IMG/VR virus record: IMGVR_UViG_3300037484_000445
Span: 1 to 64,000 of that record
Strand: one strand, 5' to 3'
Source: a virus
Taxonomy: Duplodnaviria > Heunggongvirae > Uroviricota > Caudoviricetes
DNA: 64,000 nucleotides
Both the position numbers and the translations under genes were made by a program. Positions within the stretch are counted from its first letter, which is position 1. Each line of letters begins with the position of its first letter. Below the pieces are notes generated by a model. It searched no databases. It was not told the DNA's origin and saw only the letters and a list, made by a program, of their open reading frames with translations. Below, one piece after another: positions 8,687-27,436 of this stretch.

Positions 8687-8848
8687 AGGGCACCCCCTAC
8701 GTGAAGCATACAAGCCTTTGTTGGTTCGACTCCAACCTTCCCCACTAGGACTTAGGTCCGATCTACGGGGAAGTCGCTCAATGGTAGAGCAGCGGAAATT
8801 GAAAATCCGTCTCGAAAGAGATTCTCCGCTTTACAACTCGGGTGCCCT
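8687..8848 (+). ncRNA. circularly permuted tRNA-like RNA with conserved module (element A)
   Basis: AGGGCACCC/GGGTGCCCT end stem; GTGAAGC/GCTTTAC; ATACAAGC; T arm, closed acceptor CTTCCCC/GGGGAAG, D arm, anticodon arm in that order. Confidence 0.85.
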
Positions 8849-8858
8849 TGACTTTTAC

Positions 8859-8931
8859 GCCCCTGTAGTCTAGAGGAAAGGCGTCCGCCTTCTAAGCGGA
8901 GTTCTCGCGGGTTCGAATCCTGCCAGGGGTA
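8859..8931 (+). tRNA. tRNA-Arg(TCT)
   Basis: cloverleaf, CT TCT AA. Confidence 0.9.
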
Positions 8932-8933
8932 CT

Positions 8934-9071
8934 GGGGAACATGAGGCACGGCGCCTCGCCAGACGGTTAATCTGGATGCCAAAAGCATCACTGCCTAGTT
9001 TCTCGGCTCTGCAAGGAGCCTCTCTACTTGGCCTACAAGCACACTTGGTTCGACTCCAAGGTTCCCCGCCA
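8934..9071 (+). ncRNA. tRNA-ended RNA with conserved module inserted in the variable loop (element F)
   Basis: acceptor GGGGAAC/GTTCCCC+GCCA, D arm, CCAGA-CGGTTAA-TCTGG arm, GCAA-capped module, CTACAAGCA, T arm. Confidence 0.8.
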
Positions 9072-9130
9072 CAATGCTTTGATACCCCGCCTTAGGGTGA
9101 GGAGGTACTCGTGAGAAAAGACGTTTGAAT

Positions 9131-9201
9131 GCCCTTACAGCTCGAAGGTCGAGCAACCGCCTCGTAAGCGGTCGGGCCGAGTTCGATTCTCGGTAAGGGC
9201 T
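9131..9201 (+). tRNA. tRNA-Thr(CGT)
   Basis: cloverleaf, CT CGT AA. Confidence 0.92.
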
Positions 9202-9202
9202 C

Positions 9203-9276
9203 CGCAGGATGGAGCAGCCTGGTAGCTCGTTGGGCTCATAACCCGAAGGTCAGAGGTTCAAATCCTCTTCCTGCAA
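9203..9276 (+). tRNA. initiator tRNA-fMet(CAT)
   Basis: C1:A72 mismatch, GGG/CCC anticodon stem, CT CAT AA. Confidence 0.95.
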
Positions 9277-9480
9277 CTAAAATCGGCAATTCGAATCCGT
9301 CGGATGGCCCCATGAATGGGGGACGACGGGCCGATCATCTCCGGGTGACGACCGCGTATCCCCGGGCATCTCGTCGTAGACCCCCCTGCTAGCAGGATAG
9401 AGGCGAGCTCTGGTTTGCTGGATAACTCCAGTTGCGGTGCTTTTCACATGTGGACATTTCATGTTATTGTTGATGTCTTC

Positions 9481-10017
9481 ATGAAACGTGCTTCTTATAC
9501 CAAAGAGACTTTACGATCGGCCATAGCTTCTAGTGTTTCGATGGCTGATGTTCTCAGGTTTCTGGGTCTCCGTCTTGCTGGTGGGACACATTCTCACATT
9601 AGTCGAAAGATTAAGGAATGTGGCCTGAGCACAGCACACTTTACGGGCCAAACTACGAATCGTGGTCTAACCCACAAAGGATCTTACCGGAAGCCGGCTG
9701 AACAAGTCTTAATTAAGCGAGAAAGGGGTTACCGCACTTTATCCGTTAGACTCAGAAGAGCCCTAATTGAGACAGGTGTTGAATACAAGTGTGCCTCTTG
9801 TGGATCTGGTTCTGTGTGGAACAAGCAGCCCCTTGTATTACAGGTCAACCACCGTAATCGTGATTGGCTTGATGATAGGCCCGATAATTTGGAGTTTCTT
9901 TGCCCAAACTGTCATAGTCAAACTGAAGGTTGGTGTGGTAGTAAGGGTGGCACTGATGTGTTGAGTAATGCCAAACAAGGACGTATACGGTGCATGGTGA
10001 AAAGGCAAACACGTTAG
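9481..10017 (+). CDS. HNH endonuclease (free-standing homing type)
   Basis: CASC..LQVNHRN..DNLEFLCPNCH; 3' end overlaps tRNA-Leu. Confidence 0.9.
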   Translation: MKRASYTKETLRSAIASSVSMADVLRFLGLRLAGGTHSHISRKIKECGLSTAHFTGQTTNRGLTHKGSYRKPAEQVLIKRERGYRTLSVRLRRALIETGVEYKCASCGSGSVWNKQPLVLQVNHRNRDWLDDRPDNLEFLCPNCHSQTEGWCGSKGGTDVLSNAKQGRIRCMVKRQTR

Positions 10018-10070
10018 GCTTAGGTCCTAATGAGAGCAATCTCGTGGGGGTTCGAGTCCCTCTGCACCGA
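9988..10070 (+). tRNA. tRNA-Leu(TAG)
   Basis: class II cloverleaf, CT TAG GT. Confidence 0.9.
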
Positions 10071-10078
10071 CTGAGTAC

Positions 10079-10159
10079 GGGCTGTGACCTAAGCCTGGTG
10101 GTATACGGGCGCCCGTCCTATTAACGGGTGGATCAGGGGTTCGATTCCTCCACGGCCTA
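10079..10159 (+). tRNA. atypical 8/4 tRNA-like gene (loop CCTATTA; TAT or ATT)
   Basis: GGGCTGTG/CACGGCCT, 4-bp T stem, extra ACCTAA before the D arm. Confidence 0.55.
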
Positions 10160-10166
10160 CAAGTTT

Positions 10167-10239
10167 GCCCCTCTAGCTTAGGTGGTCAAAGCGCGTTCTT
10201 GGTAAGAACGAGATCCGGGTTCGACTCCCGGATGGGGCT
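10167..10239 (+). tRNA. tRNA-Thr(GGT)
   Basis: cloverleaf, TT GGT AA. Confidence 0.88.
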
Positions 10240-10268
10240 CTAAATCAAACTATCCTTTCAGGTGAATT

Positions 10269-10454
10269 ATGAGCAATCTACAAAAACTGCTTGATTGGGT
10301 AGAAGTCGAGAAGACTAAGGGCTTGATTGACATCAAGTTGTTTCCGCGACTTCCGGGTGACCCAGAAGTCGACCTAGAAACGGCTGCTGGGGATGTTCTA
10401 GCCCTTTGCCGAATAAGCCAAGAGGGTGAGGACATCACCAACTTGGGGTTGTAA
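10269..10454 (+). CDS. small hypothetical protein
   Basis: 61 aa, AGGTG SD, fills the gap between tRNAs. Confidence 0.6.
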   Translation: MSNLQKLLDWVEVEKTKGLIDIKLFPRLPGDPEVDLETAAGDVLALCRISQEGEDITNLGL

Positions 10455-10461
10455 TTCGAAT

Positions 10462-10544
10462 GGAAGAGTTTGGGTGAGTGGTCGCCCGCCAGCCTGGAAA
10501 ACTGGAATACCGCAAGGTAAGCAGTTCGACTCTGCACTCTTCCG
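10462..10544 (+). tRNA. tRNA-Ser(GGA), 8/4 fold
   Basis: GGAAGAGT/ACTCTTCC, T stem GCAG/CTGC, variable arm, G73. Confidence 0.88.
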
Positions 10545-10546
10545 CT

Positions 10547-10634
10547 GAAGGGTAGACCAACAAGGGTGTTGGCGGCGACGTAGAGCGCCGGGACTCTGTG
10601 AAAGGAGTTCGAGGTTCAATACCTCTGTCCTTCG
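10547..10634 (+). tRNA. allo-tRNA-like 8/4 RNA with long variable arm and non-standard anticodon loop
   Basis: GAAGGGTA/TGTCCTTC, GAGG/CCTC T stem, CGGCG-ACGTAGAG-CGCCG. Confidence 0.55.
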
Positions 10635-10638
10635 TTAC

Positions 10639-10711
10639 GGGTCTTGAGCAAGTCTGGTGATTGCACTGGTCTGAAAAGCCAGCCAATACGGTTCGATTCC
10701 GTAAGGACCCA
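10639..10711 (+). tRNA. tRNA-Phe(GAA)
   Basis: cloverleaf, CT GAA AA. Confidence 0.88.
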
Positions 10712-10713
10712 CC

Positions 10714-10850
10714 GAGGGCACCCCCTCATCGTAAGCAAACAAGCACTTTGGGTTCGATTCCCAATTCCCCCTCTAGGACTTCGGTCCGATCATGGGGGAA
10801 AGCCCAGTGGTGGGCAGCAAAGTCATTCGCTTTCAAACTCGGGTGTTCTC
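10714..10850 (+). ncRNA. circularly permuted tRNA-like RNA (element B; no anticodon arm)
   Basis: GAGGGCACCC/GGGTGTTCTC; AAACAAGCA; T arm, TTCCCCC/GGGGGAA closed by a GGAC-TTCG-GTCC hairpin, D arm. Confidence 0.82.
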
Positions 10851-10854
10851 TTAT

Positions 10855-10927
10855 GCGAGCTAAGCCACAATGGCGTGGCACCTGCCTTCCAAGCAGGCCC
10901 AGACGGGTTCGATTCCCGTAGCTCGCT
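10855..10927 (+). tRNA. tRNA-Gly(TCC)
   Basis: cloverleaf, CT TCC AA. Confidence 0.9.
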
Positions 10928-11042
10928 CAACTGTCGTAGGTCGGGGCTTGCTAATAGCTTGTTCCTAAATAACGATAGCCGGAGCGAAGAGACCTCAATG
11001 TAGACCAGCTTGAGGCTCCGAAGGGGAACTCTTCGAGCTCAC

Positions 11043-11115
11043 GGCCCCATCCACCAAAGGCTAAGTGAACGGCCTTTCAAGCCGTAAATGTCGGGTTCGA
11101 GTCCCACTGGGGTCA
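11043..11115 (+). tRNA. tRNA-Glu(TTC)
   Basis: cloverleaf, CT TTC AA. Confidence 0.85.
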
Positions 11116-11122
11116 CTGTCAG

Positions 11123-11194
11123 GCTCCCATAGTCTAAAGGATAGGCACGGGCTTCCTAAGCCTGTTCATGCTGGTTCGAGTCCAGCTGGGAGTG
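11123..11194 (+). tRNA. tRNA-Arg(CCT)
   Basis: cloverleaf, TT CCT AA. Confidence 0.93.
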
Positions 11195-11207
11195 CTTGTT
11201 GATTCAT

Positions 11208-11280
11208 GCCCTTGAAGTCCACTGGGTGGACGCTAGCTTGTCACGCTAGGTCGAGGTGGGTTCGACTCCCATCAGGGGCG
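11208..11280 (+). tRNA. tRNA-Asp(GTC)
   Basis: cloverleaf, TT GTC AC. Confidence 0.9.
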
Positions 11281-11283
11281 CTG

Positions 11284-11354
11284 CGGTCGTAGCCAAGTGG
11301 TAAGGCGGGAGGTTGTGGTCCTCCTATTCGTGAGTTCGATTCTCACCGATCGCC
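11284..11354 (+). tRNA. tRNA-His(GTG)
   Basis: cloverleaf, TT GTG GT, C73. Confidence 0.93.
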
Positions 11355-11379
11355 CTAAAGCTCTTGTGCCTTGTACTAA

Positions 11380-11529
11380 ATGATGGTTCCACAACACGAT
11401 ACCAAAGATCAACACTTAGAGTCCTCGAAAGAGGAATCCAAGTCGGTTATTCCTTGCACGAGTTGTCCTGGTTGGTGGTATGAAGGGGATATTCCAAAGC
11501 ACTGGCCTGGGTGTGAGAAGAACAAGTAA
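11380..11529 (+). CDS. 49-aa hypothetical protein, CxxC..HxxxC
   Basis: MMVPQHDTKDQHLESSKEESKSVIPCTSCPGWWYEGDIPKHWPGCEKNK; fills the gap between two tRNAs. Confidence 0.45.
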   Translation: MMVPQHDTKDQHLESSKEESKSVIPCTSCPGWWYEGDIPKHWPGCEKNK

Positions 11530-11530
11530 T

Positions 11531-11603
11531 GGGGCTGTAGCTCACTTGGGAGAGCGCTGCTTTCGCACAGCAGAGGTAGAGGGTTCGAATCCCTTCAGTT
11601 CCA
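11531..11603 (+). tRNA. tRNA-Ala(CGC)
   Basis: G3:U70, TT CGC AC. Confidence 0.95.
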
Positions 11604-11608
11604 CTCAT

Positions 11609-11681
11609 GGGGCCATAGCTCATCTGGGAGAGCGGCACGCTGGCAGCGTGTAGGTGGTCGGTTCGAGTCCGACTGGTTCCA
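11609..11681 (+). tRNA. tRNA-Ala(GGC)
   Basis: G3:U70, CT GGC AG. Confidence 0.95.
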
Positions 11682-11763
11682 CTATTGGTCAAGAAGGTCG
11701 CCTCTTCTGTACGGAGAGCTGGTAAGAGCGAGGGTAGCGCCGCCAAGCTTGACTGGTAACTAC

Positions 11764-11836
11764 GGGGTCTTAGCTCAGTTGGGAGAGCGTCTGCATGGCA
11801 TGCAGAAGGTCGTCGGTTCGATTCCGACATTCTCCA
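11764..11836 (+). tRNA. tRNA-Ala(GGC), mismatched acceptor stem
   Basis: G3:U70, AT GGC AT, two acceptor mismatches. Confidence 0.75.
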
Positions 11837-11841
11837 CTCAT

Positions 11842-11913
11842 AGGTCATACGCGACGGTAGCGAATTGGATTCCAAATCCGATTGAGAGGGTTCGACTCCT
11901 TCATGACCTGCCA
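11842..11913 (+). tRNA. tRNA-Trp(CCA)
   Basis: TT CCA AA, AGGTCAT/ATGACCT, GCCA end. Confidence 0.85.
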
Positions 11914-11917
11914 GAAT

Positions 11918-11991
11918 GATCCACGACTCAGCTGGTAGACGAGGCAAGTCTGATAAACTTGTAGTGCAGAGTTCGATTCTCTGGTGGATCA
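11918..11991 (+). tRNA. tRNA-Ile(GAT)
   Basis: cloverleaf, CT GAT AA. Confidence 0.88.
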
Positions 11992-11993
11992 CT

Positions 11994-12150
11994 GAGTACC
12001 CCCTACGATAGATCAAACAAGCATTTGTGGGTTCGAGTCCCGCCTCCTGCTCTAGGGTGAAAGCCCAACATGCAGGAGTAGCCGAATGGTAAAGGCAATG
12101 GTTATCCAAACCGTGATTAGCATCACATCGATCTAGCAACTCGGGTACTC
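11994..12150 (+). ncRNA. circularly permuted tRNA-like RNA (element C)
   Basis: GAGTACCC/GGGTACTC; TAGATC/GATCTA; AAACAAGCA; T arm, CTCCTGC/GCAGGAG closed by a hairpin, D arm, anticodon arm (TA TCC AA). Confidence 0.87.
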
Positions 12151-12157
12151 TAACTAT

Positions 12158-12241
12158 GCTGGTGTGGCGGAACGGCAGACGCAGTTGGCTCAAACCCAAC
12201 CGGGGTTAACCCCCGTGAGAGTTCGAATCTCTCCATCAGTA
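12158..12241 (+). tRNA. tRNA-Leu(CAA)
   Basis: class II, CT CAA AC. Confidence 0.93.
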
Positions 12242-12244
12242 CAA

Positions 12245-12303
12245 GGTCCTCGTTTCCAGGCAGGAATAGACGTCGAAGTGGTTCGAATCCACATGAGGAC
12301 CCA
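12245..12303 (+). ncRNA. 59-nt mini-tRNA lacking an anticodon arm
   Basis: GGTCCTCGT/ATGAGGACC, D arm TTCC/GGAA, T arm GTGG-TTCGAAT-CCAC. Confidence 0.65.
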
Positions 12304-12344
12304 GGTTTAGGATAGCTTCGGTCGAAGTTGTTTTAAGCCGTTAT

Positions 12345-12418
12345 CGGGGTGCGGGCTCAAGGCGGGCCGCCTGGTTTGGGACCAGGACATCAGGTGAGTT
12401 CAATTCTCACCACCCCGA
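12345..12418 (+). tRNA. tRNA-Pro(TGG)
   Basis: cloverleaf, TT TGG GA. Confidence 0.88.
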
Positions 12419-12422
12419 CTGG

Positions 12423-12544
12423 GAGGCATCCCATCAGAAAGTACATACACGCATTGTCTAACGGTAGGACAATACCCTTCCAAGGTATCCATACGGGTTC
12501 AAATCCTGTTGCTAAAAACGTCGTACTTTCATCTCGGATGCTTC
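12423..12544 (+). ncRNA. module enclosing a normal-order tRNA-Gly(TCC)-like body (element G)
   Basis: GAGGCATCC/GGATGCTTC; GAAAGTAC/GTACTTTC; ATACACGCA; D, anticodon (CT TCC AA) and T arms; acceptor reduced to about 3 bp. Confidence 0.8.
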
Positions 12545-14501: not shown

Positions 14502-14603
14502 CAAATCATAGGGTTGTGACAATTTTCAAAAATACTTCGGGGACCCGTTGTGCCTGGTGTATCTGGTGATCAGATTCACACCTCAAGCTGACGGATTACC
14601 CCT

Positions 14604-15341
14604 ATGACCACATTAGCTCAATTGCTGTCCGTTGAAGGGCAGACCAAGTCTTCTTCCAACGAGCAAATCACTGCTCAGTACCAGCTTCTGCAGAAGGAGC
14701 CTCTTCTCAACGGCGTTGCTCGCACCTACCAGCCATTGGAGGATGCCGGTGAGCGTCTGCCTCCAGAAGGCAACCAGGTTCAGGTGCGGGTCAAGGAAGT
14801 TCTTCGAGAGGTGGCTCGTGTGATGACGCCACTCTACGATCTCACTATCCAGAAGGACTCGGCTAACCAAGGCACTCGTGCTGACGTTGAGGTTGACGGC
14901 AAGGTCCTATTGAAGGATGCTCCCGCCACATATCTCTTGTGGTTGGAGAAGCAGTTGACGGATCTTCACACGGTGATCGTCAAGCTGCCGGTGCTTCCCC
15001 AGACTGAGTCTTGGGAACCAGACCCAACTCAGGCCGCTTACAAGACGCCCGTTGTCGAGACGTCTAGGACGAAGAAAATACCTCGTCCTCTCGAATTATC
15101 CCCGGCAACCAAAGAACATCCTGCTAAGGTTGAGTTGGTTCACGAGGACAAGATCGTAGGGTATTGGTCGACCGTGAAGTATTCGGGCGCCATTCCTCGC
15201 CAGCAGGCACAAGACCTGCGGGAACGAATTGAAAAGCTACAGGCAGCGGTGAAGTTCGCCCGTGAAAAGGCAAACACCATCACCGTGCCAAAGGTCGAAG
15301 CCGGGAACGCCATTTTTGGCTACCTGTTCTCTGACCTGTAA
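14604..15341 (+). CDS. helical/coiled-coil protein directly upstream of a large structured RNA; candidate RNA partner
   Basis: 245 aa, strong codon bias; RNA begins about 2 nt after the stop. Confidence 0.75.
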   Translation: MTTLAQLLSVEGQTKSSSNEQITAQYQLLQKEPLLNGVARTYQPLEDAGERLPPEGNQVQVRVKEVLREVARVMTPLYDLTIQKDSANQGTRADVEVDGKVLLKDAPATYLLWLEKQLTDLHTVIVKLPVLPQTESWEPDPTQAAYKTPVVETSRTKKIPRPLELSPATKEHPAKVELVHEDKIVGYWSTVKYSGAIPRQQAQDLRERIEKLQAAVKFAREKANTITVPKVEAGNAIFGYLFSDL

Positions 15342-15342
15342 A

Positions 15343-15771
15343 GGACCCCCAAGCTTAATCTGAAGCTCCTTGTTACTGGTGCTCTGGTTTGGGACGAAAG
15401 TCCCTGTGTTGGTTCGAATCCAACCGCCCCGACTCCGACGTAAGTCGGTAACTCACCGGGGTGTAGTCCAATGATGGCAAGAGGCACTCCAGCGCCAACT
15501 AAGACTGAATCTTGGGACTAAGCTTAAGCTGAATTCTGTTGCTAACTTCTCTATCGGTTGCCTGCAATTTCCACGAATGTTGGTTCGAATCCGATCTCCC
15601 CAGCAATGCTCATCAGGGCCCACTTCATGGGCATTGCTGGGGGGTGGCCTAATGGCAAGGCGCGTGGGCTTTAGAGCTGATGGGCAATCTTAAACGCCGT
15701 AGTTAGTCAGACAGAACGCACTAACCATGCGAACCTACACGGACCTGGGGACAGGCTAGTTTCCCGGGTCC
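15343..15771 (+). ncRNA. about 430-nt RNA containing two circularly permuted tRNA domains (YrlA-like topology)
   Basis: two T-arm / closed-acceptor / D-arm units (about 15378-15496 and 15571-15667) in a paired scaffold with repeated AAGCTTAA(T/G)CTGAA; terminal hairpin 15741-15771. Confidence 0.8.
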
Positions 15772-15783
15772 ACCTAATTTAAT

Positions 15784-15873
15784 GGATAGTGAATCGCATA
15801 GGTTGCGACCTCGTTTCGAAAGCGAGTGGACCCTGTGAAAGGGGTTGGAGATCGAGACTTCCGCTATCCGCCA
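15784..15873 (+). tRNA. tRNA-Ser(CGA), 8/4 fold
   Basis: GGATAGTG/CGCTATCC, TT CGA AA, variable arm, GCCA. Confidence 0.85.
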
Positions 15874-15942
15874 GACCTTGTCGTCTAAGTAGGACGGTAG
15901 TGCCTCAATCTACTCATGAAGGTTCATGTCCTTTCGAGGTCT
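15874..15942 (+). tRNA. degenerate tRNA-Glu(CTC)-like
   Basis: GACCTTG/CGAGGTC, D and T arms, loop GC CTC AA. Confidence 0.5.
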
Positions 15943-15947
15943 GTTAT

Positions 15948-16034
15948 GGAAGACAAATCCGTTAGGTACGGACGCGGTTTTGAAAACCGATGGGTCCCGT
16001 GAAAGGGACTGGGTTTCGAGTACTCTGTCTTCCG
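15948..16034 (+). tRNA. tRNA-Ser(TGA), 8/4 fold
   Basis: GGAAGACA/TGTCTTCC, TT TGA AA, variable arm. Confidence 0.85.
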
Positions 16035-16037
16035 CTA

Positions 16038-16451
16038 ATGGCCAACGTGAATCAGAAGGGTGTTATAGGTTTGGTTAAGGTGACCGCGGATCTTGTAACA
16101 CGTGGATTCGAAGTATTCACACCGATCTCTGATGCATGTCCTGTAGACCTTATTGCTGCTAATGATGCAATGACACTTCGCAGGATTCAGGTTAAGTATA
16201 GAGAACCTTCTGCTAGAGATCATGTGCTTTTTGTGTCTTTGGACTCTGTGGTTAACGGGAGACGTGTTCCTATAAACTTGAGCCTGTTGGACGGTTGGGC
16301 AATTTATTGTCCTCAGACAGAGAAGGTTTATTACGTCCGTCGGGATGCTGTTAGTCTACGTAGTATACGGTTGTGCTTACAGGATTCCAGACAAAGAAGA
16401 CAAGGTCGTTTAGCTACGGACTTTATGGATCCAGCGAGCCTATGGTTTTGA
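16038..16451 (+). CDS. PD-(D/E)XK endonuclease (homing-endonuclease-like)
   Basis: KGVIG..V..DL..RGFEVF.P..PVDLIA..RIQVKY. Confidence 0.85.
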   Translation: MANVNQKGVIGLVKVTADLVTRGFEVFTPISDACPVDLIAANDAMTLRRIQVKYREPSARDHVLFVSLDSVVNGRRVPINLSLLDGWAIYCPQTEKVYYVRRDAVSLRSIRLCLQDSRQRRQGRLATDFMDPASLWF

Positions 16452-17592: not shown

Positions 17593-19479
17593 ATGCCAAA
17601 TGTAGAGAACCTAGGGCCTGCTGAGCGAATCATCAACTCACTACTGACTTACACGGATCACCTTTTTCATGGGCGTCCGGGTATCGTTACGCCGGACACC
17701 ACACTGGCGACAGGTGCCAAGTGGCAGTTTGCCACCTATGTCGAGAATGCCGGCGTCAAGACGGTCTATGCTCTTCGTGAGAAGGGTCCAGTGACAAAGG
17801 TCGAGATTGCTGAGGGTAAGTCCTTGAAGATCAAGGGCACGGCTTTTGGTGTCCTCGACGCCGACGGCATCACCATCAAGGATCCTCGTGGCCGAAAGAT
17901 TGGTGAGTATCGTTCACCTGGCATCTTCAAGGAAGTTGCTACTTGGATGTTCCGTCAGGTCGCTGAGATCTGGAAGTTGGACAACGAGTTTGCTGCTCGT
18001 TGGGCATCTCACGCCTATGCTGAGGATCATCGAGACCTCAAGGTTATTCTGGCTTCGTTCATGCTGGTTCAGACCCGTAAGGGTGACCCCGTATTGGATG
18101 GGGGTAAGGTAGCTTTCCTTGATGAGGACTACCGTGATGTTGGCGAAGCCATGATCTTGCAGAATGGGGCTAAGTACCTGGATCTAAAGATGATCCTTAG
18201 GATTCTGGGGGTGCTAGAGCTTCCTGAGGTTGCGGCGATCGTGCGAGAGCTTGGATTTGGTAACTCGGCACGTAGTAAGTTCTTGGGCCGGTTCCCGAAG
18301 GTTGCTGAGAAGTGGCTTCGGTATCGAGAAGAGAACCCTCAGTTGCTGAAGGGCTTGATTAAGAGCGGTCAAAGGAGCTCGTTGAAGAGACTGGCTACAA
18401 CCGTTCGATACAAGCCGACCACGCCGAAGTTCTTCAAGGATTTGCGTTGGAAGCAGGTCCAGGCCAAGGACGGTCACCGTGGGCTTGCCATTGGCGAGGC
18501 TGTGAGTGCCGCCGAGACTTGGGCGGATCTACGTGAAGAGCAAATCTGCGAGAGGATTGTTCAGTCCAAGATGAACTTCAAGAGGATTGTTGGCCTTTTG
18601 CCGGAAGCTGTCGGACTTTCTCGTGCTGTTATGGCAGCTGCGATCGAGGCTGGTTCACTTTCGGATAAGGACTTGATCCTTTACACGCCGACGCTGGAAG
18701 AGCTTGGTCTGCTCAAGGTTCCAGCTATTCACGGGAAGTGGCAGTTGGCTCTTAAGGCTGCCGAAGACCAGAGGGCTGCTAACGTAGCTACTCGAGTCAA
18801 GGGCAAGGAAACCAAGGAACTACTGCAGGGTGCCGCAGACACGGCTATGCAAAAGGCTGTGGAAGAGGTAATCCGAGGTATGAGGGTCTACTTCATCGTA
18901 GACATCTCGGGCTCGATGGAAAACGCCATTGAGCAGGCCAAGGTCAACATCACCAAGTTCTTGCCGGGTTTCCCGCTCGACAAGATCCACGTTTCGGTCT
19001 TCAATACCTCCGGTCGGGAGATCGCCCTCAAGCATGCTACGGCGGCTGGGGTCGAGAATGCCTTCCGTGGTATCAAGGCCAGCGGTGGAACTAGCTACGG
19101 TGCAGGTGTCATGGCTCTCCATACACACAAGCCTAAGGCTGAAGAAGACGCCCTGTTCTTCTTCATTGGTGACGAGGAGGCCACCCCCTTTGCTCAGGAT
19201 GTAAGGATGTCGGGTATCAATCCGGTAGCCTTCGCTTTCATCAAGGTAAGGGTTAATGGCTACTCTGCTGTTAGGGATACGGCCCAGGCTCTGGGGATCC
19301 CTTGCATCATGGTGGACCAGAACACCTTTGAAGACCCGTATGCTATCCCTCGGACTATTCGCAACTTAATTGCGGCAACTCCTGTGGGACGTGCTCCGGC
19401 CAGGATCCAGCAGCGTGAAACGTTGGTAGACGTGATCCTTAAGACGCCTCTACTGACGAAGCCGGCTTGGGCGGCATAA
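17593..19479 (+). CDS. Ro60/TROVE-like helical protein with C-terminal vWA (MIDAS) domain
   Basis: VDISGSM, GGTSY, IGDEE MIDAS motifs; basic helical N-terminal 400 aa; vWA is firm, TROVE is inferred from architecture and RNA context. Confidence 0.65.
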   Translation: MPNVENLGPAERIINSLLTYTDHLFHGRPGIVTPDTTLATGAKWQFATYVENAGVKTVYALREKGPVTKVEIAEGKSLKIKGTAFGVLDADGITIKDPRGRKIGEYRSPGIFKEVATWMFRQVAEIWKLDNEFAARWASHAYAEDHRDLKVILASFMLVQTRKGDPVLDGGKVAFLDEDYRDVGEAMILQNGAKYLDLKMILRILGVLELPEVAAIVRELGFGNSARSKFLGRFPKVAEKWLRYREENPQLLKGLIKSGQRSSLKRLATTVRYKPTTPKFFKDLRWKQVQAKDGHRGLAIGEAVSAAETWADLREEQICERIVQSKMNFKRIVGLLPEAVGLSRAVMAAAIEAGSLSDKDLILYTPTLEELGLLKVPAIHGKWQLALKAAEDQRAANVATRVKGKETKELLQGAADTAMQKAVEEVIRGMRVYFIVDISGSMENAIEQAKVNITKFLPGFPLDKIHVSVFNTSGREIALKHATAAGVENAFRGIKASGGTSYGAGVMALHTHKPKAEEDALFFFIGDEEATPFAQDVRMSGINPVAFAFIKVRVNGYSAVRDTAQALGIPCIMVDQNTFEDPYAIPRTIRNLIAATPVGRAPARIQQRETLVDVILKTPLLTKPAWAA

Positions 19480-19556
19480 ATCGAAGTTTGAGGGGTCGGT
19501 TGCGTAAAACGTGACCGACCCTTTGCTTCATTACTTTTTAGGTGTATATACACCAC

Positions 19557-20513
19557 ATGTCTTGGCGCGATCTACTCCAGGCGGTTGATGAAACCCTGAG
19601 CTACCCGTGGACGGGTGGACGGACCCTTAGGGGATCCGATGATAGGCGCTTGACCGTTGAGGGCCGACTTCCTAGGGAGTATGGTTGGTGTACTTTCAAG
19701 GTTTTAGGACGTAAGGCTCGCTATACGTCTCCTGCGGAGCCTCAGCCTTTGGGATTCAAAGTTTTGGGTTACCTTGTGGGAGACCGCTTCATTTCGGATG
19801 GTGTTCGTGTTGACCCGGATCCCCAGACCATTGCTACCTTTTCTGAGCCGGTCCACATCTTGGAGGACGGTCTCGATCGATTCGTTAGAATATCCGCTGG
19901 CCGGATCTTTGACGACGGACCCCTGATCTACGATGCTCTGGAGATGCCTTTGGGGCCCGAGGAAGCGGTCCTGGAAGCCTTCTTGGACCAGAAACCATCC
20001 GTAAGCCACATTCCTGGCGTTGTACCGGCTCTAGACGCTGCTTTCAGGCTGGAGACCTATCAGAGAGTCGAGGCCGAGAGACGCCGCCTAGAAGAGGAAC
20101 GTAGGCTTCGGGAAGAGGGAGAGGCCCGGCAGAGAGAAGAGCGTCGCCAGGAGCTGATCAAGCAACTGGGAGACGGCCGAGGGCGAAGGGCTCTGGCTGC
20201 CCAAGACTTTGGCACTGCGGCACGGGCGGCTTTGGCCATTGGCGGGGCCGAGTATCTGGATCACCGTCGCTCTGTCAATCGTGGTGAAATGGTCGTCAGG
20301 TTTAGGCTCAATCACCGTCGGTTCGAGTGCGTTTGTGCTGAAAGGACCCTTGCCATCATTGACTCGGGAATCTGTCTCACGGCTCACTACGATGATCCGA
20401 ACTTTACCGGCGGTACGAAAGGAGACGGCTGGTTCACCTTGGAAAGTCTACCTTCGGTAATTCTCGAGGCAGAGAGGCTAGGCCGCTTGGTGGTGTATAG
20501 ACACGTGGACTAG
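19557..20513 (+). CDS. putative E2-like (UBC-fold) conjugating enzyme with central coiled coil
   Basis: IIDSGICL (cf. E2 G.ICL catalytic Cys) followed by WFTLESLPSVI; next to JAB/Ubl/E1. Confidence 0.6.
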   Translation: MSWRDLLQAVDETLSYPWTGGRTLRGSDDRRLTVEGRLPREYGWCTFKVLGRKARYTSPAEPQPLGFKVLGYLVGDRFISDGVRVDPDPQTIATFSEPVHILEDGLDRFVRISAGRIFDDGPLIYDALEMPLGPEEAVLEAFLDQKPSVSHIPGVVPALDAAFRLETYQRVEAERRRLEEERRLREEGEARQREERRQELIKQLGDGRGRRALAAQDFGTAARAALAIGGAEYLDHRRSVNRGEMVVRFRLNHRRFECVCAERTLAIIDSGICLTAHYDDPNFTGGTKGDGWFTLESLPSVILEAERLGRLVVYRHVD

Positions 20514-20521
20514 GAGACCCT

Positions 20522-20911
20522 ATGCAAGAAGCCGGTGTGTTGGTAGACTTTCGAGGCAACCCGATTTATTGGCATCTGCCAGCAAATCGGGGAACGATAG
20601 TTTTGCCCGATAGTCGAGATCTTTGGAAAGCCTTCGAGGAAAAACGTGACAGGGTTTATGGGTACGCCCATAGTCATCCTGGATCCGGGATGCCCGCGGC
20701 TTCAGCCGAAGATATCACGAGCTTTTCTGCAATTGAGAGAGGCCTTGGGCGTCGACTAGTCTGGTGGATTGCTACGGCCACAGACGTCAAACACTACTTG
20801 TGGCGAGGCCCTGACGAGTACCTTTATCGGGGTTACGCAGACACTATGGTTCCTCATGGCTTTGCTTGGTTGGATGAGCTTAGGAACCTTTCACACTACG
20901 ATGGGAGATGA
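20522..20911 (+). CDS. JAB/MPN (JAMM) metalloprotease, deubiquitinase-like
   Basis: N-terminal EAGVL, HSHPGSGMPAASAED (HxH-x7-S-x2-D). Confidence 0.9.
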   Translation: MQEAGVLVDFRGNPIYWHLPANRGTIVLPDSRDLWKAFEEKRDRVYGYAHSHPGSGMPAASAEDITSFSAIERGLGRRLVWWIATATDVKHYLWRGPDEYLYRGYADTMVPHGFAWLDELRNLSHYDGR

Positions 20912-21168
20912 ATATGGAAGACTTTGAAGCACGGGTAAACGTTACATACATGGGCGCCAACGGAGATCTTCCGGACCCTGTGAAGTACGACGCCACGGAT
21001 GCCGAGATCCTTGGTTGGGTAACGGAAGCCATTCGTACTGGCGGTGTCCCTGGTATTCCGGAAGACGCTAACGCCAACCTGACGGATTTCGTTGTCGATC
21101 GGTTTGGTCCTAGCGAACCGACTCCGTACAACCGCCTGATGGTGCGTCCCAAGACGCCCTTCGGTTGA
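20908..21168 (+). CDS. ubiquitin-like (beta-grasp) protein
   Basis: 86 aa, ends RPKTPFG with a C-terminal Gly; lies between JAB and E1. Confidence 0.75.
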   Translation: MNMEDFEARVNVTYMGANGDLPDPVKYDATDAEILGWVTEAIRTGGVPGIPEDANANLTDFVVDRFGPSEPTPYNRLMVRPKTPFG

Positions 21169-21186
21169 ACACCTTGCGAGGGTACC

Positions 21187-21762
21187 ATGGCCTTGATTAC
21201 AATTGTTGGTGTAGGAGCTCTTGGGTCACACGTGGCTCAATTCCTCCGAAACGCGGAAGCTGAGATCAAAGTCATCGACTTCGATCGTATTGAGACCAAG
21301 AACACGAAGTCTCAATTTCATAGCTCGCCCAACGTGGGCAAGCTCAAGGCGCCCTCGCTTCAGCAGACCTTGAACTTCTTGTTCAAGACGAAAATCACAG
21401 TGGTTTCTCACAAGCTGGTTGATGACAACGTCAATCAGCTTTTGGGTGGATCCAACCTCGTGATCGACTGCTTGGATAACGGTACAGCTCGGAGATTGGT
21501 CCAAACATTCTCTCGTGCTCAAGGAATCCCGTGCTTGCACGGGGCTTTGGCTGCGGATGGAGCTTTTGGTCAAGTTCTCTGGACTGAGCACTTTCGAATC
21601 GACGATGAGGTGGGTGCGGGGGCGGCGACCTGCGAAGATGGAGCTCATCTTCCGTTCATCGCCTTGGTCTCCAGCCTCATGGCACAGTCAGCTCAGACGT
21701 TCCTGCGAAGCGGGAAGAAGTTGAATTTTCAAATACATCCGACGGGCGTAATCTCCGTCTGA
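21187..21762 (+). CDS. E1-like ThiF/MoeB adenylyltransferase
   Basis: VGVGALGS, IDFDRIETKN, DCLDN..R, ATCED (candidate catalytic Cys). Confidence 0.92.
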   Translation: MALITIVGVGALGSHVAQFLRNAEAEIKVIDFDRIETKNTKSQFHSSPNVGKLKAPSLQQTLNFLFKTKITVVSHKLVDDNVNQLLGGSNLVIDCLDNGTARRLVQTFSRAQGIPCLHGALAADGAFGQVLWTEHFRIDDEVGAGAATCEDGAHLPFIALVSSLMAQSAQTFLRSGKKLNFQIHPTGVISV

Positions 21763-21834: not shown

Positions 21835-21967
21835 GGCGGATACGAGGCATGGGCCTCACCAGACACATAATCTGGATGCGAAAGCATCACTGCCTAGCGT
21901 CTCGGTCCCGCAAGGGACCCTTAGTTTAGGCCTACAAGCACACTTGGTTCGATTCCAAGATCCGCCA
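21835..21967 (+). ncRNA. tRNA-ended RNA with module in the variable loop (element H; paralog of F)
   Basis: GGCGGAT/ATCCGCC, CCAGA-CACATAA-TCTGG, GGTCCC-GCAA-GGGACC, CTACAAGCA, T arm. Confidence 0.82.
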
Positions 21968-21969
21968 CC

Positions 21970-22120
21970 TGGCTTCACTCCCACGTAGAGATCAAACACG
22001 CATCTGTTGGTTCGAGTCCAACTTTTTCCGTCACAAACTGGAAAAATAGCCTAACTGGTAAAGGCAATCGTCTGAAACACGATCAATTGTACTACCGGTC
22101 TCAACACTCGAGTGAAGTCA
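21970..22120 (+). ncRNA. circularly permuted tRNA-like RNA (element D)
   Basis: TGGCTTCACTC/GAGTGAAGTCA; GAGATC/GGTCTC; AAACACGCA; T arm, TTTTTCC/GGAAAAA, D arm, anticodon arm CT GAA AC. Confidence 0.85.
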
Positions 22121-22126
22121 AACTAA

Positions 22127-22251
22127 CCCGGTAAAAGGGCAATGGCAGCCCACCTGTTTTAGGGATAGGCATAGTCGCTCGGACGACTCGACCTCGCAAG
22201 GGGTCTCCAGAACGAGCATACAAGCATGTGGTTCGAATCCACATACCGGGA
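22127..22251 (+). ncRNA. tRNA-ended RNA with module in the variable loop (element I)
   Basis: CCCGGTA/TACCGGG, D arm, loop TT TAG GG, GCTCG..ACTC-GACCTC-GCAA-GGGGTC..CGAGC-ATACAAGCA, T arm. Confidence 0.82.
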
Positions 22252-22252
22252 C

Positions 22253-22386
22253 TGAGGGTCACCCCCTCTAGTATACATACAAGCAAACTAGCTCAGTCGG
22301 TAGAGCATCCGCCTCATAAGCAGAACGTCGTCGGTTCAAATCCGACATTTGCACCTTTAGTCGTATACTTTCTCGGGTGACCTTCA
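22253..22386 (+). ncRNA. module enclosing a normal-order tRNA(CAT)-like body (element E)
   Basis: TGAGGGTCACCC/GGGTGACCTTCA; GTATAC/GTATAC; ATACAAGCA; D, anticodon (CT CAT AA) and T arms. Confidence 0.83.
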
Positions 22387-27072: not shown

Positions 27073-27432
27073 GGGCTCGACAGGTTTCGACGTGGTGAAC
27101 AAGGAATATATCGATCATGCAAGGGCGCTCGCCCCTTCAACGAGCCGTAATAACTGCAAACGACAACAGCATTGCTGACCGCCTCGTAGCGTAAGCCATT
27201 ACCCCAGTAGATCGTCCTAGTATCTGGGGAGTGAAACCAAGACCAGGGCTGGGTTTCCGGGATTGCCTAACCACCGGGTATCGAGATTGAAGAAAGGCTT
27301 TGGACAGACAAGATTCTGTCAAAACCCTAGGCGAAAGCCCACGGTCAAATAGGGTCATCGTAGTGGGCTAAGCATGTGAACAAGGTACTTCTAGAAGCGC
27401 TGCGGACCCCGGTTCAATTCCGGGCGGGTCCA
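27073..27432 (+). ncRNA. ssrA: tmRNA; tag (A)ANDNSIADRLVA at 27156-27194
   Basis: GGGCTCGACAGGTTTCGAC 5' end, G3:U70, TAACT-GCA resume context, T arm and CGGGTCCA 3' end. Confidence 0.95.
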
Positions 27433-27436
27433 CTAA

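What the first reader, a model, noticed from the sequence alone, without database searches (positions are those of the whole stretch)
14604..15771. Second RNP candidate: 245-aa protein followed by an RNA of about 430 nt with two permuted tRNA domains
Directly after the stop, CCCAAG/CTTGGG closes domain 1: variable arm GGGAC-GAAA-GTCCC, T arm, CGCCCCG/CGGGGTG sealed by a hairpin, D arm. TTCTGT..GCTAACT/AGTTAGT..ACAGAA closes domain 2: CCACG/CGTGG, T arm, an acceptor helix extended to about 18 bp, D arm. Both are opened at the anticodon loop, the YrlA topology. Linkers repeat AAGCTTAATCTGAA (15351), TAAGACTGAA (15500) and AAGCTTAAGCTGAA (15520), which look like multiple binding sites for one protein, plausibly the upstream ORF. 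The ACAAGC module is absent, so this is a separate system.
Basis: partly seen in the sequence, partly recalled or inferred. Interest (0 to 1): 0.85.

Follow-up and report, generated by a model that had tools for sequence, protein, structure and literature searches.

The report
Double tRNA-mimic RNA with DUF7873 partner
Right behind a gene of unknown function, this jumbo phage encodes a roughly 430-base folded RNA with two anticodon-less tRNA look-alikes and a track of six-base repeats; the same gene-RNA pair occurs in about half of sampled Streptomyces species and in many phages, and it probably forms an undescribed RNA-protein particle.

Summary
Confirmed. ORF 14604-15341 is Pfam DUF7873. 15343-15771 is a conserved RNA with two back-to-front tRNA domains. 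166 of 240 loci (window included) carry both domains and 57 carry one; controls never give two. All 55 of 101 Streptomyces genomes with the gene have the RNA beside it; TROVE/Ro60 varies independently.

Covariation supports the helices, the tRNA Levitt pair, and a long-range dock of the 3' hairpin loop onto domain 2's discriminator end. The repeats (A-R-N-Y-U-N) are conserved as RNA, not as peptide, and recur at the gene's own start, which suggests protein binding and autorepression. The protein's best fold match is DIP1984/DUF6847 (Z 7.8 only), whose genes also carry a downstream RNA.

A Ro60-like gene lies 1.8 kb downstream in this phage, but that adjacency is clade-specific. Best reading: a DUF7873-coated RNP displaying capped, unchargeable tRNA elbows as decoy or tether. 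Binding, transcription and function are untested. It is not in Rfam 15 or the papers searched. This scan has reported the pair many times on other DNA.

The parts
14572..14591 (+). Two copies of the repeat motif (14572-78, 14585-91) in the leader of the gene; candidate autoregulatory site
   Evidence: motif 38 times in the last 50 nt before the start codon of 79 homologues, against 17 +/- 4 in dinucleotide shuffles (max 27). Function inferred.
14604..15341 (+). DUF7873 gene, 245 aa; helical hairpins plus a long beta-hairpin; DIP1984-like fold proposed
   Evidence: Pfam PF25283 E 5e-91; model pLDDT 89.5; 3KDQ Z 7.8, rmsd 8.1, 147 of 152 aligned; 14 basic and 12 aromatic positions conserved in 90% or more
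15343..15771 (+). The structured RNA as a whole (ends inferred from conservation, not mapped)
15348..15516 (+). Helix P1 (15348-53 with 15511-16), closing the domain-1 arm
   Evidence: 54/54 cells paired in 9 close relatives; family-wide covariation z up to 9.7
15351..15368 (+). Repeat tract R1: three clear hexamers (four to five in the family)
   Evidence: A at position 1 in 89-100%, U at position 5 in 92-99% over the first four units
15391..15485 (+). Permuted tRNA domain 1: GNRA variable-arm hairpin, T arm, 7-bp acceptor sealed by a loop with a hairpin, class-II-like D arm; dispensable in the family
   Evidence: A15-U48 92/100, A73 79/100; ARAGORN after re-permutation
15497..15537 (+). Repeat tracts R2a (15502-13) and R2b (15520-31) on either side of the P1 3' strand; R2a faces R1 in a fixed antiparallel register
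15541..15707 (+). Domain-2 stalk: helices 15541-47/15701-07, 15555-57/15697-99 and 15558-62/15683-87, with the conserved bulge 15689-96
   Evidence: Top covarying pairs not imposed by the parser, 81-98% paired
15571..15667 (+). Permuted tRNA domain 2: anticodon-position stem, T arm, 7-bp acceptor plus 11-bp extension, class-I-like D arm; the retained core domain
   Evidence: Levitt pair A-U 79 / G-C 19 of 100; ARAGORN 89/92
15741..15771 (+). Terminal hairpin; loop bases 15754-56 (GG plus a variable base) complementary to positions 73-75 of domain 2 (15603-05)
   Evidence: Watson-Crick 70/92 against shuffle mean 32, max 46; 86/92 with G-U; domain 1 shows no such match

Best explanation
A two-part cassette. 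The RNA folds into two tRNA-shaped elbows on stalks, joined by a track of about 8-11 A-R-N-Y-U-N units (structure supported by covariation). Several copies of the DUF7873 protein bind the track, roughly one unit each, and form a stable particle (inferred, about 0.7). The 3' hairpin loop pairs with the discriminator and CC positions of domain 2 and caps that end, so the mimic is neither charged nor decoding (pairing supported; consequence inferred). Surplus protein binds the same motif at its own start codon and damps its synthesis (inferred, about 0.45). The particle most likely works as a nuclease-resistant, anticodon-less tRNA decoy or tether for host factors that read the tRNA elbow, such as tRNA-directed defence toxins or RNA-damage machinery (inferred, about 0.3). 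The confidence below is for the RNP with capped tRNA mimics, not for the target.
For: Gene and RNA travel together: 54 of 55 by BLAST (Fisher p 2e-26), and the exception G022 has the RNA on inspection. No neighbouring gene is shared across phyla. The pair persists at 27-31% protein identity in Klebsiella, Ralstonia, Vibrio and Rhizobium phages. Tertiary Levitt covariation. Dock covariation. In-register repeat codons use only AGR for Arg (85 v 0) and AGY for Ser (31 v 0), and the tracts do not covary as a regular helix. The motif is enriched at the gene's own start. Conserved basic and aromatic residues in a net-neutral protein. Genes of the DIP1984 family also have a conserved downstream RNA, in one Acinetobacter record between rtcB and rtcA.
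Against: No binding or expression data of any kind. 17 of 240 loci show no domain within 520 nt, although some have the RNA displaced. CCA is encoded in 31-38% of domains, so processing and charging may occur in some members. In this clade bases 15603-04 are also held in a covarying extension helix, which competes with the dock. The DIP1984 link rests on Z 7.8 and an Atlas TM of 0.45/0.60; hhalign is not significant. RtcB lies near only 2 of 246 loci. A Ro60-like gene lies 1.8 kb away. Shuffle statistics ignore phylogeny.
Confidence: 0.55

Rival explanations
1. CsrA/CsrB-like titration: DUF7873 is a translational regulator that binds the motif in mRNAs, the RNA is its multi-site sponge, and the tRNA folds only stabilise the sponge.
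For: Multi-site track; motif at the gene's own start; domain 1 is often lost while the tracts stay.
Against: The D/T loops, the Levitt pair and a dedicated acceptor dock are held across phyla, more than stability alone seems to need. No other target mRNAs were tested.
Confidence: 0.17
2. Toxin-antitoxin or abortive-infection pair of the type III/AbiF kind: the protein is toxic unless bound by its repeat RNA.
For: All 55 gene-bearing Streptomyces have the RNA, and one genome keeps an RNA remnant without the gene. Patchy, stand-alone occurrence.
Against: No nuclease or toxin fold was matched. About 14 loci appear to lack the RNA. The cassette sits in lytic-phage tRNA arrays.
Confidence: 0.1
3. 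A YrlA-type Y RNA for the divergent Ro60-like protein at 17593-19479, with DUF7873 as a passenger or accessory.
For: That protein's top 11 Foldseek hits are Ro60/Rsr/TROVE structures (E 5e-8 to 9e-6). It is on the same strand within 4 kb, and adjacent in close relatives. YrlA topology; sub-threshold RF02553 scores in homologues (25-38 bits v 69).
Against: TROVE is independent of the cassette (33/22/22/24, p 0.24). This Ro60-like family was not found in 101 Streptomyces (no positive control there) and lies near 1 of 246 loci. The Ro-binding motif is not conserved (13/92; in the window it falls on a GNRA loop).
Confidence: 0.07
4. A two-piece-tmRNA-like precursor: RNase P and 3' trimming open the acceptor loops, the ends are charged, and the repeats are read as an alternating Lys/Arg-Leu peptide.
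For: 7-bp acceptors, G1-C72 in 78%, C74 in 79-92%, domain 1 Leu-like. M. smegmatis YrlA is cut by RNase P and gains CCA (PMC4201824).
Against: G3-U70 in 1-5% only. Position 75 is C or U, which fits pairing with the GG loop rather than CCA. Codon choice and a one-base register shift across P1 reject peptide selection. Both acceptors of this copy lack CCA. The phage has an ordinary tmRNA.
Confidence: 0.07
5. A cis-acting 3' UTR, or decayed tandem tRNA genes of the surrounding array, with no role of its own.
For: The window is a 49-gene tRNA array. Tandem tRNAs can imitate the permuted order (PMC4201824).
Against: The acceptor strands pair within each permuted unit with full covariation, and no anticodon arm exists. 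The same RNA lies in bacterial chromosomes away from tRNA genes.
Confidence: 0.04

Closest known systems
YrlA Y RNA (Rfam RF02553) with Ro60/Rsr; PMC4201824, bioRxiv 10.1101/312249, phage form PMC12135203
   Same: Permuted tRNA module (T arm, closed acceptor, D arm), conserved UA linker and Levitt pair; encoded next to a protein gene; found in bacteria and phages.
   Different: Two modules in one RNA of 330-430 nt; a hexamer track instead of the Ro-binding motif; a 3' hairpin dock on the discriminator; tied to DUF7873, independent of TROVE; no RF02553 hit in the window, below threshold in homologues.
DIP1984 / DUF6847 (PF20935, PDB 3KDQ; formerly annotated 'septicolysin')
   Same: Best whole-length fold match; genes are followed directly by a conserved structured RNA of about 200 nt, often with a T loop.
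   Different: 90 residues shorter, lacking the long beta-hairpin; no significant profile match; its RNA has another structure and no double tRNA domain; no paper found that gives it a function.
Two-piece (permuted) tmRNA precursor (from my own knowledge)
   Same: tRNA-like domain in permuted order with a loop joining the acceptor ends.
   Different: No G3-U70, no tag frame, two domains, acceptor end docked.
CsrB/RsmY-type sponges and TRAP/HutP repeat sites (from my own knowledge)
   Same: Regularly spaced short RNA units read by an oligomeric protein; autoregulation.
   Different: Different motif and fold; the units sit in a large tertiary scaffold with tRNA mimics.
RNase P L15 loop and ribosomal P loop pairing with the tRNA CCA end (from my own knowledge)
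   Same: A GG in a loop pairs with positions 74-75, and the next base pairs with the discriminator, as in RNase P.
   Different: Here both partners lie in one molecule, and the discriminator pair covaries freely.

Membership tests
YrlA Y RNA | Permuted tRNA module with D/T arms and closed acceptor | tested here: met
YrlA Y RNA | Conserved GNCGAAN0-1G Ro-binding motif near the 5' end | tested here: not met
   13 of 92; the window's match is a GNRA hairpin that varies in relatives
YrlA Y RNA | Encoded within 4 kb of a Ro60 orthologue, family-wide | tested here: not met
   True for this phage if 17593-19479 is counted, but TROVE is independent of the cassette in 101 Streptomyces and absent from 4 other carriers
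YrlA Y RNA | RF02553 gathering score (69 bits) | tested here: not met
   No hit in the window at E 10; 25-38 bits in homologues
YrlA Y RNA | Bound by Ro60/Rsr | not testable with these tools
   Needs a binding assay
tmRNA (two-piece) | Alanine identity G3-U70 with A73-CCA | tested here: not met
   G3-U70 1/100 and 5/100; CCA 31/100 and 38/100
tmRNA (two-piece) | Internal reading frame under peptide selection | tested here: not met
   Arg only AGR, Ser only AGY; register shifts across P1
Pfam DUF7873 | Full-length match above the curated cut-off | tested here: met
   305 bits v 27, residues 1-242
DIP1984/DUF6847 | Sequence-profile match to PF20935 or NCBIfam | tested here: not met
   None of 71 members among the listed matches; no NCBIfam hit; hhalign probability 1.1%
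DIP1984/DUF6847 | Same fold as 3KDQ | tested here: inconclusive
   Z 7.8, rmsd 8.1, 147/152 aligned; clear first, tied with short helical pairs; Atlas TM 0.45/0.60
Type III toxin-antitoxin / AbiF | Toxic RNase neutralised by a repeat RNA | not testable with these tools
   Needs a toxicity and rescue assay

The most novel reading that the evidence does not exclude
DUF7873 and DIP1984/DUF6847 form one superfamily of repeat-reading RNA-binding proteins, each paired with its own downstream RNA. The DUF7873 branch builds a self-regulating particle that displays self-capped tRNA mimics to neutralise tRNA-directed defence or RNA-damage sensing: a Ro60-independent counterpart of the Ro60/Y RNA system in both phages and bacteria.
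Probability: 0.25. Interest if true: 0.9.

Novelty: new variant of a known kind. Interest (0 to 1): 0.74.

Why it matters
Large, ornate bacterial non-coding RNAs are rare, and this one is not in Rfam 15 although it lies in about half of sampled Streptomyces species and in isolated phages (Gordonia GodonK, Arthrobacter Racecar, Ralstonia RSL1), so it can be tested at once. It offers a second, Ro60-independent use of the YrlA tRNA mimic, which bears on the open question of what such mimics bind. The intramolecular cap on the discriminator end, and the possible link to the DIP1984 family (long annotated as septicolysin on Acinetobacter plasmids), would give two families of unknown function a testable role.

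Tried and rejected
Expression: no RNA holder listed; the two small-share runs gave only short scattered contigs, one probably DNA, which says nothing on transcription. Complex prediction of four copies: no verdict (score 0.32, mark 0.42). No sigma-70 promoter and no plus-strand intrinsic terminator at the RNA's 3' end were called; the terminal hairpin may still end the transcript. Foldseek against PDB and BFVD gave no match at E 0.001; no solved relative by sequence; Atlas feature search gave only unnamed clusters at 0.81-0.82. Pfam TROVE misses this genome, but the structure search shows that 'no Ro60 here' would be wrong. Neighbour clustering found only Streptomyces synteny. Repeats as a peptide: rejected. 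R1/R2a as a regular duplex: the middle pairs are not kept (34-39%) and only one column beyond P1 shows weak covariation, so an irregular zipper cannot be excluded. Homology of the DUF7873 RNA with the DIP1984 RNA: a shared short word was seen by eye, but the pairings differ; not claimed. Structure-aware MAFFT was not available; T, D and acceptor stems were imposed by my parser, so their covariation is partly circular. Papers: none holds DUF7873; searches found no description; Burroughs and Aravind 2016 was not retrievable. Viral scan for DIP1984 with one protein found nothing.

Full report
Setting. The window is the first 64 kb of a 451,925-base virus record. It holds a 49-gene tRNA/tmRNA array. 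The ORF at 14604-15341 matches Pfam DUF7873 over its whole length. The family is large: 2,654 clusters at 50% identity. Rfam 15 has nothing on 15342-15780, even at E 10, and no paper in the library holds the term DUF7873.

Observation. All named elements are present, and the stretch folds better than 100 shuffles (z -3.25). I fetched about 260 loci from viral, genome, metagenome and isolated-phage collections. A parser for the order T arm, acceptor 3' strand, loop, acceptor 5' strand, D arm found two domains in 166 and one in 57 of 240 loci with enough flank, the window included. Reverse-complement and in-gene controls gave no double hit and 6 single hits. After re-permutation ARAGORN and 89 of 92 domains tRNA (partly circular). 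The Levitt pair, whose position 48 the parser does not score, covaries in domain 2: A-U 79, G-C 19 of 100. This argues for a true tRNA elbow, as in YrlA (10.1101/312249).

Architecture. An anchored alignment of 92 dereplicated RNAs and unbiased mutual-information ranking recover helices the parser did not impose: P1, the two stalk helices of domain 2 and the terminal hairpin. Nine close relatives confirm these at window coordinates, except the outer pairing 15534-39/15711-16. One long-range pair ranks among the strongest: the discriminator of domain 2 with the third base of the terminal GG-x loop. It is Watson-Crick in 70 of 92 (shuffles: mean 32, max 46) and 86 of 92 with G-U. Positions 74 and 75 fit the two G's, and domain 1 shows no such match. 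In this clade bases 15603-04 also sit in a covarying 11-bp extension, so the dock must be a triple, an invasion or a switch; this is unexplained. Domain 1 is dispensable: at least 34 of 57 single-domain RNAs keep the domain-2 type.

Repeats. The unit is A-R-N-Y-U-N, about 8-11 matches per RNA, a count that includes some chance matches. Read as codons it looks like Lys/Arg-Leu, but Arg is only AGR (85 v 0) and Ser only AGY (31 v 0), and the register slips across P1. Selection is therefore on the RNA. R1 and R2a face each other in a fixed antiparallel register: positions 2 and 5 can always pair, the middle positions do not, and covariation essentially ends with P1. This suits a symmetric protein site better than a helix. 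The same motif is enriched in the 50 nt before the gene's start (38 v 17 +/- 4) and covers the conserved Lys-Leu-Asn codons near the start in 56 of 79 genes, with rare AGR/AGY codons favoured there (p 1e-4 and 0.002). The window's gene lacks the coding copy and has two leader copies (14572, 14585). These tests ignore phylogeny and the A/T bias of gene starts, so autoregulation is a lead, not a result.

Coupling. In 101 Streptomyces genomes the gene is in 55 and the RNA in 55, side by side. G022, missed by BLAST, has the RNA; G077 has only a 3' remnant without the gene. The gene is in 5 of 121 genomes of the Myxococcus phylum. No neighbouring gene is shared across groups. TROVE occurs in 55 of the same 101 genomes, independently (p 0.24).

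Ro60 caveat. The 628-aa vWA protein at 17593-19479, missed by Pfam TROVE, has Ro60/Rsr structures as its eleven best Foldseek matches (TM only about 0.2-0.3). So this phage does meet the 'within 4 kb' rule of PMC4201824. That adjacency is limited to close relatives, and the family was not found in the Streptomyces sample. The Ro-binding motif is not conserved. The ACAAGC RNAs of the window are the likelier Ro partners (notes, not tested here).

Protein. The model is confident (pLDDT 89.5). It is net neutral but has 14 basic and 12 aromatic positions conserved in 90% or more, four of the basic ones clustered on the long beta-hairpin. The only whole-length structural match is DIP1984 (3KDQ; Z 7.8, rmsd 8.1, 147 of 152), echoed by DUF6847 in the Atlas; profiles do not confirm it. 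DIP1984-family genes from Actinomycetota, Acinetobacter and Enterococcus are followed by their own conserved RNA of about 200 nt, with an apparently covarying closing helix (seen by eye) and an optional T loop; it has no Rfam family. In one Acinetobacter record the pair lies between rtcB and rtcA; from my own knowledge, the Salmonella RNA-repair operon carries rsr and its Y RNAs together with these genes.

Mechanism. Shown by sequence and covariation: fold, dock, repeats, coupling. Inferred: multi-copy binding of DUF7873 (0.7), autorepression (0.45), and action as a capped tRNA decoy or tether (0.3). Rivals are a sponge for a translational regulator, a toxin-antitoxin pair, a Y RNA for the Ro60-like protein, a chargeable tmRNA-like precursor, and a mere UTR.

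Verdict. A real, widespread, uncatalogued gene-RNA cassette. It works like YrlA in one module but fails the YrlA membership tests. This scan has reported it repeatedly on other DNA, so it is not new to the scan. This report adds quantified dock and Levitt covariation, the codon test, the motif at the gene's own start, the possible DIP1984 link and the Ro60 caveat.

Noticed in passing
window 17593-21762: Operon of a 628-aa Ro60-like helical+vWA protein, a 323-aa unknown, a JAB-domain protein, an 86-aa protein ending in Gly, and a ThiF/E1; the vWA family has at least 1,493 relatives.
   Followed up: partly
window 8687-12544 and 21835-22386: Nine tRNA-chimeric elements with an ACAAGC/ACACGC word; a different module from the RNA studied here.
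   Followed up: partly
L276 1-2256 (Acinetobacter record): Gene order rtcB, unknown, DIP1984 gene, 260-nt conserved RNA-like gap, rtcA.
   Followed up: partly
L262, L264-L277 downstream of DUF6847 genes: Conserved RNA of about 200 nt; T loop present in most actinobacterial copies, deleted in L264 and L271, absent in Acinetobacter and Enterococcus. Deinococcus radiodurans has both DUF6847 and TROVE.
   Followed up: partly
L278 (G077) about 1250-1400: 3' remnant of the RNA (domain 2 to terminal hairpin) with no DUF7873 gene.
   Followed up: yes
window 15874-15942 and about 15784-15865: tRNA-like elements missed by ARAGORN; the first scores 35 bits with Rfam tRNA and has odd D and T loops.
   Followed up: no
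window 15990-16451 and 9415-10017: A PD-(D/E)XK endonuclease and an ORF with HNH-like motifs (by eye) inserted in the tRNA array.
   Followed up: no
window 27073-27435: Ordinary one-piece tmRNA with its own tag peptide.
   Followed up: no
L020, L026, L059 just after the stop codon: An extra T-loop hairpin element precedes the first repeat tract; L026 and L059 lack domain 1.
   Followed up: no
L247, L249, L252: Vibrio and Rhizobium phage copies have long repeat tracts and one domain; the Microcoleus phage copy shows no parsed domain.
   Followed up: no
L015, L079: An rtcB-like gene within 3 kb of the DUF7873 gene in two viral loci.
   Followed up: no
L004-L006, L069, L070, L190, L240: DUF7873 genes with no trace of the RNA within 2.5 kb; in L035 it is displaced by about 450 nt.
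   Followed up: partly
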